From a virus, in IMG/VR virus record IMGVR_UViG_3300042309_002578, positions 64,001 to 128,000 of that record: a stretch of DNA of 64,000 nt, one strand, 5' to 3'. Under the pieces are notes generated by a model. The model saw nothing but the letters and a program-made list of their open reading frames with translations, ran no database searches and had not been told where the DNA came from. Below are positions 6,061-63,757 of this stretch, one piece after another. The stretch's first letter is position 1. Each line of letters begins with the position of its first letter. Position numbers and translations under genes: made by a program.

Positions 6061-6310
6061 TTTTGGGCATTTAAAGGGCGTTCTAGTTTCTACCTCAGAA
6101 AAGAATTTCCCCAATTAAAAAAACTACCGTCTCTTTGGACAAGTAGTTATTTTGTAAGCACCGCAGGGAATGTTAGTGGTGAATCGGTGAGGAAATATAT
6201 TGAAGATCCGCATCACGGATAATACAGAAAATACCACAGCGGTTAAAACCGCTCGCGCCGCTTCCCTCTCAGGTCTAAAGACGCTGAGTTTCCCACTTAC
6301 CGTGAGGTGT
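6061..6310 (+). pseudogene. tnpA: IS200-family TnpA C-terminal remnant plus adjacent IS end
   Basis: FKGRSSFYLRKEFPQLKKLPSLWTSSYFVSTAGNVSGESVRKYIEDPHHG* (6070-6222), then GCGGTTAAAACCGC and CTCAG..CTGAG hairpins. Confidence 0.8.
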
Positions 6311-6408
6311 ATGAGTGACAAACCAATGGGGTGAATCGTACCTACCAAAATCATGGTGCTTCGTGGTTGGTTTTGATTCTGGTACGGGGAAATCTAAAGT
6401 CACTCGGT

Positions 6409-16680: not shown

Positions 16681-17795
16681 AACATATTGCAATCCCCACA
16701 CAACAAGGGTTTCGTGTTTTTGGCAATATTCCCCGCAGCCGTTCCCCCCAAGCCGCAAACCAACCATTTGCACCAACGCCCTAACAACGCCCGTGCCACC
16801 GGCTAAAAACCTAAAATCTGCCCAGTCTTGTCGGTAAAAACATATTGCAATCCCCGCACAGCAAGGGTTTCGTGTTTTTGGCAATATTCCCCCGCAGCCG
16901 TTCCCCCAAGCCGCAAACCAACCATTTGCACCAACGCCCTAACAACGCCCGTGCCACCAGCTAAAAACCTAAAATCTGCCCAGTCTTGTCGGTAAAAACA
17001 TATTGCAATCCCCGCACAGCAAGGGTTTCGTGTTTTTGGCAATATTCCCCCGCAGCCGTTCCCCCCAAGCCGCAAACCAACCATTTGCACCAACGCCCTA
17101 ACAACGCCCGTGCCACCGGCTTAAAAACCTAAAATCTGTCCAGCCTTGGCGACAAAAAACATATTGCAATCCCCGCACAGCAAGGGTTTCGTGTTTTTGG
17201 CAATATTCCCCCGCAGCCGTCCCCAAAATCCACGAACCAAACATTTGTACCAACACCCCACTAACACCCGTGCCACCGGCTAAAAACCCAAAATCTGCCC
17301 TAGCTTTGTCGGTAAAAACATATTGCAATCCCTATGTAGCAAGGACTTTGTGTTTTTGGCAATATTCCCCCGCAGCCGTCCCATTTGTACCAACACCTCA
17401 CTAACACCCGTGCCACCGGCTAAAAAACCTAAAATCTGCACCAACTTTGGTGACAAAACATATTGCAATCCCCGCGCAGTAAGGCTTCCAGCTTTGTCGG
17501 TATTTCCCCCGCAGCCGTCTCCAAACCGGCAAAACAGACATTCATTCCCAGCCTGGACTAACGCCGATAAAATCAAAATCTTGTAACACGCCTCAAACCC
17601 GCATTCTCTCGTTAAAAAATCTGTGGCGGATTATAACATAAGGTGTGTCAAAAGTAAAGGGAAGATACAAAGAAAAAAGGGCAATTTCCTATAAGAAAGT
17701 GATCATCTTCCCAATTTTATTTTTGATTAAAATCAAAAAATTATGCAAGTACGCACCTATGTCTAAAATTCTTGTAATACGTTTGTAATATAAAA
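16681..17795 (-). repeat. dispersed element copy C: head (17520-17795) + six ~158-bp tandem units
   Basis: CATATTGCAATCC at 16683, 16841, 16999, 17160, 17319, 17459; promoter TTTACT-17-TGnTATAAT at 17658-17630 (minus). Confidence 0.95.
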
Positions 17796-26465: not shown

Positions 26466-27014
26466 TTAAATTTTTGTATTTCTTGCAGACAGATATTTTC
26501 TTAGTTTCCACTCAGCAATCAAGGCAGCATCTGCACGCCCATCACAAATTTTTACACCATTTTTGTATTTTGAATTTTTTTCATATACCAAGTCTTTTAT
26601 TTGTGGTATTAATTCCACAGCGACTTTATCGCCATTGTATTGACCGCTTGTTTTGCCGTTAACACCCAAAAGTGACATCCATTGAACGGATTGAACCTCT
26701 GTGCATGATATCTGCTTCATAAAAATGCACATCTGCAAAGCCCCAAGACCACGCCCATATTTAAGCATTGATGCAACACTCTGACTTCTTTTTTCTCCGC
26801 CTTTTTTCTCGTCTTTTTGGCTCATGGCTTTCGCAACTTCTATGGCCGCAAAACTATTGTTAGGGTCAAAATCACTAAATATTTTAGCAACACCCCTCAT
26901 TGAGATTTGCCCATCCATAAACGGCATATCGGCGCACATAATTAACTCTCTGTTTTCGTTTATAGCGACAATAGCACCCTTAGATCCTGGATCAACCCCG
27001 ATAAATACTTTCAT
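26466..27014 (-). CDS. RuvC-like Holliday junction resolvase
   Basis: IGVDPG, AIE, DGRADAALIA acidic motifs. Confidence 0.85.
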   Translation of the reverse strand: MKVFIGVDPGSKGAIVAINENRELIMCADMPFMDGQISMRGVAKIFSDFDPNNSFAAIEVAKAMSQKDEKKGGEKRSQSVASMLKYGRGLGALQMCIFMKQISCTEVQSVQWMSLLGVNGKTSGQYNGDKVAVELIPQIKDLVYEKNSKYKNGVKICDGRADAALIAEWKLRKYLSARNTKI

Positions 27015-28207: not shown

Positions 28208-28468
28208 ATGCTAGTTAAAGACTTTTTAGAATTTGCCGAACAGGTTAGACAATCTAGTGAGAAAGACCAATCTGTGCTAGACCTAGAGCTAAATTTTTAT
28301 GATGGAAGCGAGTCATGGGACATAGACAAATTAGAAATAACTATGCCTGACGCAGAAACAGAAGAACCAGGTTATGTTGTCTTTGAGTTAAAAACAAGTA
28401 TTGACATAGAAGATGACCGGTTTGACAGAAGTCACCCAGAAATACGCCATGAAGTAGTAGCCCCATAA
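28208..28468 (+). CDS. acidic hypothetical protein
   Basis: 86-aa ORF. Confidence 0.6.
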   Translation: MLVKDFLEFAEQVRQSSEKDQSVLDLELNFYDGSESWDIDKLEITMPDAETEEPGYVVFELKTSIDIEDDRFDRSHPEIRHEVVAP

Positions 28469-28671
28469 GTGCAGCGAAACCTTTTAAGGACTAACAGCTA
28501 CTGGAAGTTAGCCCTTAAAGAAAAAAGCATAATATTTAAGATTATGCAATTTTTTCTGTCAAATGGATTTTGTGAGCGAATCCCACGAAGCGGGTATTTT
28601 GCTTCTTGCTAAATTTCAAGAATTTAGACAGCTAACCCTAGCTCTATATTTATATTTCTTTCTTAGTTGTA

Positions 28672-28700
28672 TTGCATATTTTTTCTTCTCGTGCTATAAT
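28672..28700 (+). promoter_or_regulatory. near-consensus sigma70 promoter driving a non-coding region
   Basis: TTGCAT-17-TATAAT with extended TG at 28692-28693. Confidence 0.75.
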
Positions 28701-28706
28701 TATATT

Positions 28707-29195
28707 AACGAGAGTAAATCCTTAGATCAAGCGTACTGCGTTTTGGTTTTAAACTGTTCTCGTTCGGGTCTTGTTCGCAAGGAGACAAGATATCCAGGGA
28801 AATTCCCCCGTTACTATACGTATGCGGTTTTAAAAAGCCTATACCTGGAAGGCAACTCGTACCTCGGATGCGAGACAACCTCAAAAAGCTGACAGGACGC
28901 GAGGCAGATGGTTACTGCCAAGATTGAAGAAACATAAGAACCTTCGCCTCATCGATCCTAACGGATTAAACATCAGATCCTTGAAGAAACTGGTGAGCCT
29001 ATAGAGGTGCTATAGGCACGTTGGTGAAAACTAACAAGATTTTGAAGGGAGCTTGAGCCAGTAACTGTCCTGGATTAAAGTGCATTACAAAAGCACACCA
29101 AGCTTCGGTCATGCTTTTTGGTTTTCAAGCAACAAAATTATGATCTAACCTTGGGTTTCCAACCGTGTGGACTAAATCACCGCACAAAAGCACAC
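28707..29195 (+). ncRNA. candidate large structured non-coding RNA (~490 nt), family not recognised
   Basis: many nested helices, GCAA and GAAA tetraloops, long-range 5'-3' pairing; see findings. Confidence 0.6.
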
Positions 29196-29594
29196 TAAGT
29201 ATTAGACATAATTATTCTCATTGTTTTTTATTCCGCAAAAACCTAACGCCAAGTGTGTATGCGCTTATTTTAAGCGTTTATATTATTTTGGTATTTAAAA
29301 CTGCGATTTTGTCGTTGCTAGAATCTTTTTATCTTTTTCTGGACAAATAAAAATCGTTAGCTTTAGTTTATCGTCCTAAATTCTGTGAATTTAGGACAAA
29401 TTGTCATGCTTATTTTTATTAAAGCCAGATATGCACAGGCGTAAATATAGGCGCATAGAATACATTTGTTCTGTGCTTCGCTGAAAACGGTGATTTTTGG
29501 CGGCAAAAAACTACAAGCGTGTTACATGATTTTTGGCAATGACAACGACTGAAATGCCTATTCTATCGTAAGGTTGGACACCAAATTTTCAAAT

Positions 29595-29722
29595 TACATA
29601 TAATACCATAAAGTGGGTACAAAAGTCAAGGGAAGATACAAAGAAAAAAGGGTAGTTTCCTGTAAGAAAGTGATCATCTTCCCAGCTTTATTTTTCAGTG
29701 AAATTATAAATGTATTACAAGC
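29595..29722 (-). repeat. dispersed element copy D: partial head
   Basis: AAAAGTCAAGGGAAGATACAAAGAAAAAAGGG..AAGAAAGTGATCATCTTCCCA matches 17650-17713. Confidence 0.85.
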
Positions 29723-29840
29723 ACCCTCTTATTATGGCTATTGCAACGGAGGCGCATTTGTTGAAAGAAAGGAAAGATGGTGGGAAGGTGATAGTTTAGC
29801 GATCTAACAAAGAAATTGTGGAGATTTTATTCCGATAGCT

Positions 29841-29884
29841 TGGTAAGCGTAAAACTCAGTGGATAAAGCCACTGAGAGTGTCAA
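29841..29884 (+). mobile_element. IS605-family micro-scar (fused left and right ends)
   Basis: TGGTAAGCGTAAAACTCAG + hairpin CTCAGTGG..CCACTGAG + GTGTCAA. Confidence 0.55.
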
Positions 29885-30100
29885 TTCCTCGTTCGCACCC
29901 TGATGCAAACAATAATGATCCGAACAACTTCAAAAGGTGCTAATTAGAGCTTTTGTGTAACCAAAGTGGCGATCGCCACATTAGCTAAAACCTAAAAGGA
30001 TCAATACCGGGGTTGGAGTAGAGCAAGAAAGCTGCTTGAGCAGCACGGAAAAGACGCAGACAATTTTGCTTATGAATTCCAAATAAGTGAAATAAAGCTA

Positions 30101-32039: not shown

Positions 32040-32336
32040 TTGACACTCTGCGCTCTAAAGAGACGCAGATTCTATAGAGGGTTTCAGTCTATGTCCCTCA
32101 GTTATCCCAGTTTCAGACATTGCCTTAATATTGGGTTCTTGCCCTGACTTCGTTTGCCCAAAGGGCGAAATCATATCTGACAAGCGTATACTTTCCGAGA
32201 GTCCCCCGGTAGGTTTTTATGTCTTGTACTGACAACTTAATTATAACACAATATTGAAGGCGAATCAATTCGCCCGTGTGCGTTTTCCCCTTCGGTCTGA
32301 AGACGCGAAGCTCCCAACGCTACCGCTTTCCTCTTG
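32040..32336 (-). mobile_element. IS605-family mini-element with omegaRNA-like region
   Basis: minus strand: left-end hairpins, TGTTATAAT, tnpB-3'-like ACCGGGGGACTCTCGGAAAGTATACGCTTGT, right hairpin TCTGCG..CGCAGA + GTGTCAA. Confidence 0.75.
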
Positions 32337-51904: not shown

Positions 51905-52252
51905 TTATTTTTATATTACAAACGTATTACAGAAATTTTGGATATAGGTGCGTACTTGCATAATTTTTTGATTTTAATCAAAAATAAAATTGGGAAGATG
52001 ATCACTTTCTTATAGGAAACTGCCCTTTTTTCTTTGTATCTTCCCTTTACTTTTGACACGCCTTATGTTATAATCCGCCACAGATTTTTTAACGAGAGAA
52101 TGCGGGTTTGAGGCGTGTTACAAGATTTTGATTTTGGCGACATTGGTCTAGGTTGAGAACGAATGCCTGTCTGGCAGTTTTGGAAAAGGCTGTGGGGGGA
52201 ATATCCTTAAAACACCAAAGCCTTGCTACGTGGGGATTACAATATGTTTTTA
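51905..52252 (+). repeat. dispersed element copy E: full head + partial unit
   Basis: near-identical to reverse complement of 17460-17795; promoter TTTACT-17-TGnTATAAT at 52046-52074. Confidence 0.9.
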
Positions 52253-62072: not shown

Positions 62073-62082
62073 GTAAATCAAT

Positions 62083-62155
62083 GCGGTTAAAACCGCGCGT
62101 GTCGTTTCCCTCTCGGCACTAAAGTGACTGAGTTTCATACTTACCAGGAGTTCTT
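62083..62155 (-). mobile_element. isolated IS605-family end remnant
   Basis: GCGGTTAAAACCGC..CCCTCTCGGCACTAAAGTGACTGAGTTTC..CTTACC, homologous to 6239-6301. Confidence 0.7.
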
Positions 62156-63757
62156 GTGATATTTTCAAGTAAGCATCTTGAAGAAAAATTTAAAAACTTA
62201 GACACAGATGGTTTGACACCATTTGTGTCTGCTTTGGTTTTTGATATAGTAGATGAAAATTATGGGGGCGTAATTGAGAATTTAAATATAACCCATATAG
62301 AATTGCCAAATATTTCTGGATATTTTCACTCTCCAAGAGTAGGGAACAGGCGATTAAAAATAGATTTTTTAATCAATGGGAGCAACATAGTATTAACGCC
62401 ACAAAACCTAGAAATAATTGACGACGATATAGAGAAAATATATCTTGCTGTAAGATCACTATCTTTTGGCAACATAAACAAAACTAATTATCTTCCAATA
62501 GAATTCTTCAGTTTTGCTCAAAAGCAAATGAATTGCACAGTCGGGTGGTCTTGTAAGGGGCAAAATGGTTATGCTTGTCTGTCTAAATCAAAGAAAAATT
62601 GTAACAATGAGTTGAATCCAACTCACTCACAATATATGCAGTGGTTAGCAAAAAATGCTAGTGCCGAATCTGATTTATTTAAAGACTTAGAAAAAGCCGT
62701 AACTAAACCCGCAACTAAACCCGCAACTAAACCTGCAATTAAACCCACAACTAAACCTGCAACTAAACCTGCAACTAACCCCGCAACTAACCCCGCAACT
62801 AAACCTGCAACTAAATCTAAAGCAACAGTAAATTTACTTAGGAAAACAGGTAGAGGTGAGAAGTTGTTACAACCAGAAAATGACGAAGATAAAAAATTGT
62901 TTAAGGATAATATAGACAAAGCAAGAAAAGAATTAAATTCTGAATTATCAGAAAATAAAGAAAAGTTAAAAAATAATCCAAACAGCAAATATGCAACCAG
63001 GAAAATAAAAGAAATATCGGACAAACAAGATAGACTTGATGCCTACGAAAAGTCTGATAAAAACATCTCATTGCCGTCTGATTACAGATTGTATAAAGTA
63101 TCAGACATGGAATCAAAGGAGTATGAAGGTAGGCTTCTGTCTCAGCCAAACAGCAGGAGAGTGGTTGCGCTAAGTAGTGTTTCTGATGACTTACAGAAAC
63201 AATACCCCAACATGACAAAAGCTGAATTAGCCTCTTTAAAAGTTTACACGCAAACAAGCTTTGATCACATGAACACGTATTTGCGAAATAACGAAGATTC
63301 TGAGGCTATTTATAAAATAGACATTATGAAATCTGCTGGAGAATATAGATCTAAGCATCAGCTAGAAAATGACACGATTGCCGACATCAGGATGACGACA
63401 TCCGCACTCAATAAATTGCCTGATTTTATTGGCACAGTTCTTCGAGGGACTAAAATGCCAAAAAATATGAGTAACTCAGATATAGAAAATACGTACAAAC
63501 CCGGTAGTATAATTACAGAAAAAAGTTTCACAAGTACATCTAGTTCCGGCGATCGCAAGTTTAGAGGAGAATTGCAGTATGTAATTGAATCTAAAACAGG
63601 GAAAGATATATCAAATATTTCAGATAGTAGGCAAGAAAAAGAGGTTTTATTCAGACCAGGCACCAGTTTTAATGTGACTAGCTTTAAAAAATCTGATAGC
63701 GGGTATGAAATACACTTAAAAGAGGTTGACCCTGTAACTAAACCTGCAACCACCTGA
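62156..63757 (+). CDS. VIP2/ADPrib_exo_Tox-type ADP-ribosyltransferase with Cys motif and TKPA linker
   Basis: YT..MN.YLR, SALNKLP, VLRG (R), FTSTS, QEKEVLF (ExE). Confidence 0.88.
   Translation: MIFSSKHLEEKFKNLDTDGLTPFVSALVFDIVDENYGGVIENLNITHIELPNISGYFHSPRVGNRRLKIDFLINGSNIVLTPQNLEIIDDDIEKIYLAVRSLSFGNINKTNYLPIEFFSFAQKQMNCTVGWSCKGQNGYACLSKSKKNCNNELNPTHSQYMQWLAKNASAESDLFKDLEKAVTKPATKPATKPAIKPTTKPATKPATNPATNPATKPATKSKATVNLLRKTGRGEKLLQPENDEDKKLFKDNIDKARKELNSELSENKEKLKNNPNSKYATRKIKEISDKQDRLDAYEKSDKNISLPSDYRLYKVSDMESKEYEGRLLSQPNSRRVVALSSVSDDLQKQYPNMTKAELASLKVYTQTSFDHMNTYLRNNEDSEAIYKIDIMKSAGEYRSKHQLENDTIADIRMTTSALNKLPDFIGTVLRGTKMPKNMSNSDIENTYKPGSIITEKSFTSTSSSGDRKFRGELQYVIESKTGKDISNISDSRQEKEVLFRPGTSFNVTSFKKSDSGYEIHLKEVDPVTKPATT

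What the first reader, a model, noticed from the sequence alone, without database searches (positions are those of the whole stretch)
28672..29195. Candidate novel large structured ncRNA (~490 nt) with its own promoter
Seen: TTGCAT-17-TGcTATAAT puts +1 near 28707, at the start of helix AACGAGA/TCTCGTT (28707/28758). Further pairings: GCAA-capped hairpin 28769-28790; TCCAGG/CCTGGA (28793/28844); hairpin 28856-28874; long-range CAAAAAGC-TGAC/GTCA-GCTTTTTG (28882/29108-29120) enclosing CAGGAC/GTCCTG (28893/29067), GAGGC/GCCTC (28901/28946), ACTGGT/GCCAGT (28989/29057), GCCTATAG/CTATAGGC (28997/29010) and GTTGGT-GAAA-ACTAAC (29020-29035); pseudoknot-like TTAGATCA/TGATCTAA (28722/29141); 3' hairpin GTGTGG/CCGCAC (~29165-29185). 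AGAT..TTGAAG recurs three times and ACAAAAGCACAC twice. No credible ORF. Known: phages encode large RNAs (GOLLD, ROOL) with GNRA loops and pseudoknots. I could not match this one by eye to those, tmRNA, RNase P or group I/II introns. Inference: a new ribozyme-, scaffold- or cage-type RNA.
Basis: partly seen in the sequence, partly recalled or inferred. Interest (0 to 1): 0.85.

Follow-up and report, generated by a model that had tools for sequence, protein, structure and literature searches.

The report
Cyanophage RNA carrying a transposon-RNA domain
A virus of bloom-forming freshwater cyanobacteria has a promoter-driven, gene-free stretch of about 500-580 bases that looks like a folded RNA of no catalogued family, and one of its domains was borrowed from a jumping-gene RNA of the host.

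Summary
The stretch lies in a 1.6-kb gene-free gap of a 138-kb uncultured phage. The phage's thymidylate kinase is 73-78% identical to those of Dolichospermum, Aphanizomenon and Anabaena.

- **Promoter and coding:** there is a perfect extended -10 promoter (TGCTATAAT, 28692-28700), raised G+C and poor codon usage.
- **Known families:** no Rfam family matches, even at E<=10.
- **Expression:** six metatranscriptome runs from five studies hold 78-87% of the stretch's sampled words. I could not lay reads.
- **New result:** window 29048-29106 is homologous to a domain found just 3' of the HEARO (IscB omega RNA) core in protein-less ISC transposon copies of Nostocaceae (nhmmer E 5e-10; blastn 93% over about 41 nt).
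- **Structure of that domain:** it shows strong covariation. The phage keeps 13 of 13 pairs of its three inner helices.
only 4 of 13 are favoured thermodynamically, and two clash with the conserved hairpin.
- **The remaining 400 or so nt:** no homologue was found.

Verdict: probably a real, new phage non-coding RNA built around a captured transposon-RNA module. Its function is unknown. The ribozyme or cage reading is untested. The scan noted this same stretch before in other windows of this genome, and on no other DNA.

The parts
28533..28631 (+). Remnant (33 codons) of a small gene that is whole (65-66 aa) in related contigs. It marks a rearrangement joint just upstream of the promoter.
   Evidence: tblastn of P0016/P0017 residues 29-61 against the genome gives 97% and 91% identity.
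28672..28700 (+). Sigma-70-type promoter: TTGCAT, 17 nt, then the extended -10 TGC-TATAAT.
   Evidence: Read. It is one of 8 TGNTATAAT sites in the window, all intergenic.
28707..28764 (+). Inferred 5' end (+1 near 28707) and 5' terminal stem-loop (28708-28716 with 28755-28763).
   Evidence: MFE. Mean pair probability 0.79. The start is inferred from the promoter spacing and was not measured.
28765..29019 (+). Central part with no homologue found. Robust local hairpins lie at 28856-28874 and 28997-29017. Two copies of TTGAAGAAAC lie at 28924 and 28981.
   Evidence: Pair probabilities 0.97 and 1.00. Repeats. G+C is 0.44-0.46, against 0.29-0.35 in the flanking non-coding DNA.
29020..29133 (+). 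Long stem tipped by a three-way junction. The junction core 29048-29106 is homologous to the 3' domain of protein-less ISC/HEARO elements of Nostocaceae. Its helices are 29048-55/29099-106, 29058-61/29070-73 (loop UAACUGUC) and 29080-83/29093-96 (loop AUUACAAAA).
   Evidence: nhmmer 32.8 bits, E 5e-10. blastn up to 93% over about 41 nt, E 7e-9. Covariation. The phage keeps 13 of 13 pairs. Pair probabilities 0.93-0.99.
29134..29213 (+). 3' part with hairpin 29165-29185 and a second copy of ACAAAAGCACAC (29184-29195).
   Evidence: Pair probability 0.99. 12-mer repeat.
29261..29290 (+). Candidate intrinsic terminator (7-pair hairpin followed by a T-rich tail). It would make the RNA about 580 nt long.
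   Evidence: Terminator scan. Pair probability 0.88. The end was not measured.
29600..29695 (-). Partial 'head' of the phage's dispersed promoter module, with a promoter (TTGACT, 18 nt, TG-n-TATTAT) that fires towards the RNA's 3' end.
   Evidence: A 76-nt match (86-95% identical) to 7 other copies in the genome. Promoter scan. Sequence read.

Best explanation
Window 28707 to about 29200-29290 (+) is a phage gene for a non-coding, folded RNA of about 0.5 kb. It is transcribed by host RNA polymerase from its own extended -10 promoter and belongs to no catalogued family.

It is a mosaic. Its 3' third carries a three-way-junction domain copied from the RNA of protein-less ISC (IS200/IS605-superfamily, IscB-type) transposon derivatives, which are multi-copy in its Nostocaceae hosts. 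In those elements the domain sits directly 3' of the HEARO/omega-RNA core, where the nuclease gene would otherwise be.

I infer that the RNA acts in trans during infection as a binding platform or decoy. The conserved loops of the borrowed domain (UAAYUGUC and AUUACAAAA) would engage whatever host factor or RNA they engage in the transposon RNA. The repeated AGAU..UUGAAG motifs may add further sites.

Shown:
- promoter sequence
- lack of coding signal
- absence from Rfam
- homology and covarying structure of the domain
- presence in metatranscriptome assemblies

Inferred:
- the transcript ends
- that the whole RNA is one unit
- trans action
- the partner
For: (1) Promoter. A perfect extended -10 lies at 28692-28700. 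All 8 such sites in the window are intergenic.

(2) Non-coding. No ORF in the stretch reaches the codon-usage scores of the flanking genes. The gene callers behind the protein collection left it almost uncalled: of 8 ORF translations looked up, only a 124-aa variant (P0015) of one spurious ORF is on record, on 2 contigs.

(3) Composition and strand. G+C is 0.44-0.46 inside against 0.29-0.35 in the flanks. The + strand has z -2.69 and the - strand z -0.88.

(4) Expression. 6 RNA-seq metatranscriptome runs from 5 studies hold 78-87% of the 60 sampled words of 28660-29260. One of these runs has only 46 million letters. A contig covering only about 28707-29200 would give roughly 0.8.

(5) Domain homology.
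- The nhmmer profile of 20 host copies hits genome 93053-93105 (window 29053-29105) at E 5e-10, on the same strand as the promoter.
- blastn against 121 Nostocaceae-family genomes gives about 40 of 75 listed places, in at least 18 genomes, all on this one segment. The best is 93% over about 41 nt.
- 16 of the 20 host loci examined carry an Rfam HEARO match of 110-158 bits immediately 5' of the segment.

(6) Structure of the domain.
- 93.7% of cells are paired, against 35-45% when partners are slid.
- 16 pairs have changes on both sides, against 3-7 when slid.
- 0 of 500 shuffles reach the observed values.
- G-U pairs are frequent at two positions, so the fold is strand-specific.
- The phage copy keeps 13 of 13 pairs of the three inner helices, with two both-sided changes in the closing helix and consensus loops. 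The host's outer helices are replaced by a phage-specific long stem.
- Similarity is therefore confined to a structural unit, which is what selection on an RNA would leave.

(7) The unconstrained MFE and ensemble predict these same three helices.

(8) A natural variant (P0015) differs at 28876, in a predicted linker, and at 28892 (A to G), which keeps the pair as G-U in both fold models. This is weak evidence, n = 2.
Against: - No reads were laid. The strand, the ends, and the level relative to neighbouring genes are unknown, and RNA libraries can hold DNA.
- No homologue of the 5' two-thirds was found in any accessible collection, so there is no covariation test for about 400 of about 500 nt.
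- Energy evidence is modest. The tile at 28700 is not an outlier in the window.
- The locus lies in a rearranged region: a gene remnant at 28533-28631 and a partial dispersed module at 29600-29695. The phage also carries other ISC debris. The domain could therefore be a recent passive capture.
- The function of the donor domain in the host element is itself unknown.
- The terminator is weak, and the 3' end could lie anywhere from about 29120 to about 29290.
Confidence: 0.5

Rival explanations
1. Passive mosaic. The stretch is debris left by recombination with host ISC elements and the phage's own dispersed modules. It happens to lie behind a promoter, and the transcript has no function of its own.
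For: - The phage holds 6-7 copies of the ISC right-end 'leader' and a 64-codon fragment of a Y1 transposase.
- A truncated small gene abuts the promoter.
- A partial, inverted dispersed module lies 400 nt downstream.
- No homologue of the rest of the RNA was found.
Against: - Similarity to the host element stops exactly at the borders of a three-helix unit.
- The closing helix differs by compensatory changes while the loops are at consensus.
- No ISC ends or HEARO core lie anywhere near.
- G+C is raised over the whole 28700-29100, not only over the borrowed 60 nt.
- The sequence is nearly invariant in 14 DNA runs from 11 studies, 2016-2024. This last point may only reflect one young phage population.
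Confidence: 0.22
2. Cis-acting element. The transcript or the DNA serves locally. It could be a structured leader or terminator zone managing convergent transcription with the module promoter at 29600 (-), or a primer or origin transcript next to the replication genes.
For: - There are convergent promoters at 28672 (+) and 29629 (-), with hairpins at 29261-29277 and 29373-29397 between them.
- The neighbours are a Holliday-junction resolvase, thymidylate kinase and a DnaE polymerase.
- The sign of the GC skew changes near 27000.
- The 500-nt tile at 29000 is the second most stable of 424.
Against: - No + strand gene follows for 900 nt, so it is not a leader of an mRNA.
- Nothing in the stretch looks like iterons or an AT-rich unwinding element.
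- The borrowed domain is an RNA-type, strand-specific structure.
Confidence: 0.13
3. Guide or anti-guide RNA of the OMEGA system. The RNA either loads into host IscB as a phage-supplied omega RNA or traps host IscB/omega RNPs.
For: - The only homologue of any part of it is an element that carries the IscB omega RNA.
- The hosts carry 10-43 IscB matches per genome.
- Other phages of cyanobacteria in this scan carry IscB systems (unchecked notes).
Against: - The HEARO scaffold that IscB binds is absent from the phage RNA: there is no hit at E<=10, and the host profile matches only positions 453-504.
- The borrowed domain is absent from all 10 IscB-encoding host loci examined, so IscB does not need it.
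- The phage record has no IscB and no TnpB above cut-off.
- A crude duplex test gave no excess complementarity to host elements (z -0.7 to +0.8).
Confidence: 0.07
4. Unannotated small protein genes.
For: ORFs exist: 109 aa at 28563-28892 (+), 59 aa at 28705-28884 (-) and 61 aa at 29165-29350 (+).
Against: - Codon scores are at or below 0.08, against 0.14-0.37 for the neighbours.
- There are no Pfam hits for the 109-aa ORF.
- The only database relatives of the 109-aa ORF are a read-through variant of itself and proteins that match only its first 21 residues, upstream of the promoter.
- A natural variant turns its stop codon into Trp and extends it, which is not how a conserved gene behaves.
Confidence: 0.03

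Closest known systems
3' domain of protein-less ISC (IscB-type, IS200/IS605 superfamily) elements of Nostocaceae. These are PATE-like copies made of a HEARO core, a domain of about 100 nt, a right-end hairpin, and an insertion site before ATGA.
   Same: - A three-way junction with the same two loops (UAAYUGUC, AUUACAAAA).
- The same order and strand.
- 77-93% identity over 40-57 nt.
- All 13 inner pairs kept.
- In both, the junction sits at the tip of a long irregular stem.
   Different: - The phage has no HEARO core, no ISC ends and no ATGA-type insertion context.
- The host's two outer helices are not conserved: 5 of 7 and 1 of 4 pairs.
- I found no description of this domain in print. Kapitonov et al. 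2016 (PMC4810608; passages read) describe ISC ends and the N|ATGA target, but the passages I saw do not mention this domain.
HEARO RNA / IscB omega RNA (Rfam RF02033).
   Same: It is the neighbour of the donor domain in the host element. Like the phage stretch, it is a structured non-coding RNA of mobile DNA.
   Different: The phage RNA does not match the model at all, whereas host copies score 110-158 bits. There is no nuclease gene beside it.
GOLLD and ROOL, large ornate RNAs often found in phages and prophages.
   Same: Size class (about 0.5 kb), phage location, own promoter and no ORF.
   Different: - There is no match to either Rfam model.
- There is no evidence of multimer or cage formation.
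- There is no family of homologues on which an ornate fold could be shown.
- That these RNAs form cages comes from the abstract of bioRxiv 10.1101/2024.12.08.627333 seen in a search listing.
The phage's own dispersed promoter modules (head plus 158-bp repeats; earlier notes e1-6169257 and e1-6169269).
   Same: - An extended -10 promoter followed by the same 10-mer TTAACGAGAG. That 10-mer occurs 6 times in the genome: 5 in modules and 1 at the RNA's start.
- A shared 12-mer ACAAGATTTTGA.
   Different: There is no other similarity between the RNA and the module leader or repeats. The promoters are not homologous outside the consensus.

Membership tests
HEARO / IscB omega RNA (RF02033) | Match to the Rfam covariance model at or above its gathering score (83 bits) | tested here: not met
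   There is no HEARO hit in the window at gathering score, nor at E<=10 in 28400-29700. Positive control: host copies score 110-158 bits.
HEARO / IscB omega RNA (RF02033) | Lies at the 5' end of an ISC element (5' GTCA ... right-end hairpin | ATGA), usually before iscB | tested here: not met
   The host-element profile matches only positions 453-504 here, with no left or right end nearby. The phage record has no RRXRR/IscB match.
3' domain of protein-less ISC/HEARO elements (defined here) | Significant match to a profile of the host copies, on the transcribed strand | tested here: met
   nhmmer 32.8 bits, E 5e-10, + strand. blastn E 7e-9.
3' domain of protein-less ISC/HEARO elements (defined here) | Three inner helices (closing helix plus two hairpins) with conserved loops | tested here: met
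   13 of 13 pairs are kept in the phage. The family shows covariation: 0 of 500 shuffles reach the observed values, and slid controls are far lower.
3' domain of protein-less ISC/HEARO elements (defined here) | Outer helices 1 and 2, and the position between a HEARO core and an ISC right end | tested here: not met
   5 of 7 and 1 of 4 pairs are kept. No core or right end is adjacent. The phage therefore holds a copy of the inner module, not a member element.
GOLLD / ROOL | Match to the Rfam models | tested here: not met
   cmscan against all 4227 Rfam 15 families gave none at gathering score and none at E<=10.
GOLLD / ROOL | Homo-oligomeric RNA-only assembly | not testable with these tools
   This needs native gels or cryo-EM.
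tmRNA, RNase P RNA, group I and group II introns | Match to the Rfam models. For tmRNA, detection by ARAGORN as well. | tested here: not met
   The - strand begins with GUGCG at 29185, but there is no domain V and no Rfam hit.
Independent bacterial-type sRNA gene | Own promoter and own terminator bracketing an ORF-free transcript | tested here: inconclusive
   The promoter is convincing. The terminator candidate at 29261-29277 is weak. Transcript ends were not measured.

The most novel reading that the evidence does not exclude
A phage of bloom-forming Nostocales has built a large trans-acting RNA around a structured module taken from the RNA of its host's IscB-type transposons. It uses this RNA to capture the host factor (or RNA) that this module normally engages. 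This would be an RNA decoy that ties phage infection to the host's OMEGA/ISC mobile-element machinery. It would also be the first function for an undescribed domain that replaces the nuclease gene in protein-less HEARO elements.
Probability: 0.15. Interest if true: 0.8.

Novelty: new variant of a known kind. Interest (0 to 1): 0.55.

Why it matters
If the RNA is real and functional, it adds a large phage-encoded non-coding RNA in an ecologically important system: viruses of toxic-bloom Dolichospermum/Aphanizomenon. It would also show that RNA domains move between host transposons and phage RNAs as modules, much as protein domains do.

It also exposes, on the host side, a covarying RNA domain of about 100 nt that takes the place of iscB in multi-copy protein-less HEARO elements. 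I could not find this domain described. Its conserved loops offer a concrete handle, by pull-down or mutagenesis, on what these orphan omega-RNA elements do.

If the stretch is only recombination debris, the finding is a modest note on how heavily ISC elements litter this phage.

Tried and rejected
**Searches for homologues of the whole RNA that found nothing**
- blastn of 28470-29610 against 50,697 phage records.
- DNA search of four phage records whose DnaE is 40-44% identical.
- nhmmer over 57 and then 174 fetched loci.
- IMG/VR pattern TTGAAGAAAC..TTGAAGAAAC gave 118 loci, all chance.
- A 23-mer from the RNA against GTDB genome contigs gave 0 hits.
- Flanking-protein searches of IMG/VR with the 198-aa, 201-aa and resolvase genes gave none. 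The 198-aa family profile gave only 26-36% relatives in IMG/VR and metagenomes.
- P0016 in IMG/VR gave none.
- An IMG/VR pattern for the borrowed module gave 3 contigs, all full host-type HEARO elements rather than the phage RNA type.
- Scan notes on relatives: 0 windows.
Protein hits P0002-P0007 (50-87% identical to the upstream gene) show that relatives do exist.

**Considered and rejected**
- Other weak host blastn hits (29008-29049, 29144-29165, 29202-29249) fall in unrelated host coding DNA and look like chance.
- Units U1-U3, as tandem duplicates of the module, share only the short AGAU..UUGAAG motif, so duplication is not shown.
- An RNA-RNA duplex test against host elements was uninformative.
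- The group II intron reading of the - strand was rejected: no Rfam hit, too short, and the - strand folds no better than shuffles.
- The idea that the RNA is an insertion into a dispersed-module leader was rejected, because the promoter regions are not homologous.
- The look-up of ORF translations for natural variants gave only P0015.

**Literature**
- The supplements of PMC10690425 (over ten thousand candidate viral RNAs; search listing only) were closed and may list this RNA.
- HEARO's original description is recalled, not read. PMC2864571 holds no mention of it.

Full report
**Setting.** The window is bases 64001-128000 of a 138-kb IMG/VR virus record, 83% complete by CheckV. Near the finding lie a Holliday-junction resolvase, a DNA methyltransferase, a thymidylate kinase and a DnaE-type polymerase. 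The thymidylate kinase is 73-78% identical to those of Dolichospermum, Aphanizomenon, Anabaena and Cuspidothrix. The host is therefore very probably a bloom-forming member of the Nostocales. No cultured phage is close: DnaE is under 40% identical to anything in the phage records searched, and the upstream gene has no match there.

**The observation.** The stretch lies in a gap of about 1.6 kb (28469-30100) without a convincing gene.
- The promoter is real as a sequence: TTGCAT, 17 nt, TGC-TATAAT. The -35 is poor, but the extended -10 is perfect.
- All eight TGNTATAAT sites of the window lie between ORFs of 100 aa or more. Chance would give about 4.5 sites, placed anywhere.
- G+C rises to 0.44-0.46 in 28700-29100, against 0.29-0.35 in the non-coding flanks.
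- ORFs of 25 aa or more in 28560-29620 score -0.14 to +0.08 on a codon log-odds, apart from one at +0.14 (29613-29807) that lies outside the RNA. The six neighbouring genes score 0.14-0.37.

**Energy.** The evidence is only moderate. The + strand has z -2.69 and the - strand z -0.88. In a regression over 424 tiles of the window, the tile at 28700 is ordinary (z -0.99) and the tile at 29000 is the second most stable (z -2.93).

**Known families.** Rfam 15 gives nothing in the whole window at gathering score. In 28400-29700 at E<=10 it gives only two chance hits, both upstream of the promoter. ARAGORN finds no tRNA or tmRNA. GOLLD, ROOL, RNase P, tmRNA, group I/II introns and HEARO are therefore all excluded as memberships at this sensitivity.

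**Expression.** An index of public runs lists 20 runs that hold at least half of the 60 sampled words of 28660-29260.
- Fourteen are DNA runs (shares 0.87-1.00, eleven studies, 2016-2024).
- Six are metatranscriptome RNA-seq runs from five studies (shares 0.78-0.87), one of only 46 million letters.
- A contig limited to about 28707-29200 would hold about 0.80 of the words, so the RNA shares fit a transcript without the promoter and far 3' flank. Single-base variants would lower the shares in the same way.
- I could not lay reads.
- Strand, ends and level relative to neighbours are therefore not shown.

**The new result.** A DNA search of four host-lineage genomes gave weak hits that recurred on one segment, about 29053-29099.
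- In 121 genomes of the same family this segment accounts for about 40 of the 75 listed places, in at least 18 genomes. It is often multi-copy, and the best match is 93% over about 41 nt (E 7e-9). The other hits look like chance.
- Of the 20 host loci I examined, 16 carry an Rfam HEARO match of 110-158 bits directly 5' of the segment on the same strand, one has a sub-threshold match, and three have none.
- A profile of the 20 copies shows a conserved unit: HEARO core, then a 3' domain of about 130 nt, then a hairpin and a 'leader' ending just before ATGA.
- This agrees with the termini (5' GTCA ... | ATGA) that Kapitonov et al. describe for cyanobacterial ISC transposons (PMC4810608, passages read).
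- In ten host loci that do encode IscB, the profile matches only the core, never the 3' domain. The domain therefore belongs to the protein-less derivatives and stands where iscB would be.
- In the phage genome the profile matches the RNA only at positions 453-504 (window 29053-29105; 32.8 bits, E 5e-10).

**Structure of the shared domain.** I aligned the phage segment with 19 host copies. RNAalifold gives five helices.
- Counting pairs gives 93.7% of cells paired, against 35-45% when partners are slid by 1-3 columns.
- There are 16 pairs with changes on both sides, against 3-7 when slid.
- None of 500 shuffles reaches any observed measure.
- G-U pairs are common at two positions, so the fold belongs to this strand.
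- The phage keeps 13 of 13 pairs of the three inner helices: 29050-55/29099-104, 29059-61/29070-73 and 29080-83/29093-96. It has two both-sided changes in the closing helix, and both loops are at the host consensus.
- The host's outer helices are not kept. In their place a phage-specific stem (29025-34 with 29118-27) carries the junction.
- The unconstrained fold predicts the same three helices with probability 0.97-0.99.

**What it is.** The phage stretch is not a HEARO RNA and not an ISC element. It has no core, no ends and no nuclease, and the record has no IscB or TnpB. It is a promoter-driven non-coding stretch that contains an intact, structure-preserving copy of one module of a host transposon RNA. 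Similarity stops at the borders of a structural unit, and the closing helix has drifted in a compensatory way. For these reasons I favour selection on an RNA over a passive fragment.

The case for passive capture is real, however.
- The phage carries 6-7 copies of the ISC right-end leader and a Y1 transposase fragment.
- The promoter abuts the remnant of a small gene that is whole in other contigs.
- A partial, inverted copy of the phage's dispersed promoter module lies 400 nt downstream, firing back towards the RNA.

**How it may work.** I commit, at about even odds, to a trans-acting RNA whose borrowed loops engage the same partner as in the host element, acting as a platform or decoy. The partner is unknown.
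- A role as an IscB guide is unlikely, because the scaffold is missing and IscB-encoding elements lack the domain.
- The ribozyme and cage ideas were not testable.
- The shared 10-mer TTAACGAGAG lies right after the promoter both here and in five dispersed modules. This hints at a common early-transcribed signal, but I could not take it further.

**Limits.** The relatives needed for covariation over the whole RNA exist: proteins P0002-P0007 are 50-87% identical to the upstream gene. The scan's earlier notes on this stretch come from other windows of the same genome and are not independent.

Noticed in passing
window 6227-6321, 32240-32315, 62076-62175 (also genome 21110-21206, 25741-25840 and 51395-51471, outside the window): There are six to seven copies of a host-like ISC right-end unit (short hairpin, then TTTCCCTCTCAGG..CTGAGTTTCCC..CTTACC, then ATG/GTG) in front of phage genes. 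It is the same unit that ends the host's protein-less HEARO elements before their ATGA target. It may be the 'shared leader' of the effector genes noted earlier in this genome.
   Followed up: partly
window 6067-6207 (+): A fragment of an IS200/IS605 Y1 transposase (Pfam Y1_Tnp positions 71-120, 43.5 bits, 64-codon open frame) lies directly upstream of one right-end unit.
   Followed up: no
host loci L257-L280 (for example L264:1440-1580, L257:1600-1470 on the - strand): Protein-less HEARO elements of Nostocaceae carry a strongly covarying domain of about 100 nt 3' of the Rfam model. It was absent from the 10 IscB-encoding loci examined. I found no description of it.
   Followed up: partly
window 28705-28714, 17606-17615 (-), 52089-52098; genome 26516, 42673 (-), 54144 (-): TTAACGAGAG occurs six times in the genome, always 6-17 nt downstream of an extended -10 promoter: five times in the dispersed promoter modules and once at the RNA's start.
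   Followed up: partly
window 28533-28631: This is the remnant of a 65-aa gene (residues 29-61 of P0016), cut at both ends. The AT-rich hairpin at 28527-28549 that looks like the upstream operon's terminator overlaps its left joint.
   Followed up: partly
window 29508-29545 (+) and 29600-29695 (-): A partial copy of the dispersed module lies here. Its head and promoter are on the - strand, while a leader-like GCGTGTTACATGATTTTTGG motif is on the + strand, inverted relative to full modules.
   Followed up: partly
window 29087-29105 and 29184-29202: A 19-nt imperfect direct repeat (ACAAAAGCACAC, C or T, AAG..) suggests that the 3' half of the borrowed module's second hairpin is duplicated 96 nt downstream.
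   Followed up: no
window 29373-29397: A perfect 11-bp palindrome (GTCCTAAATTC nnn GAATTTAGGAC) lies between the convergent promoters. A related imperfect copy is at 28609-28627.
   Followed up: no
window 29966-29979: The cyanobacterial HIP1 palindrome GCGATCGC sits within a hairpin, in keeping with the host assignment.
   Followed up: no
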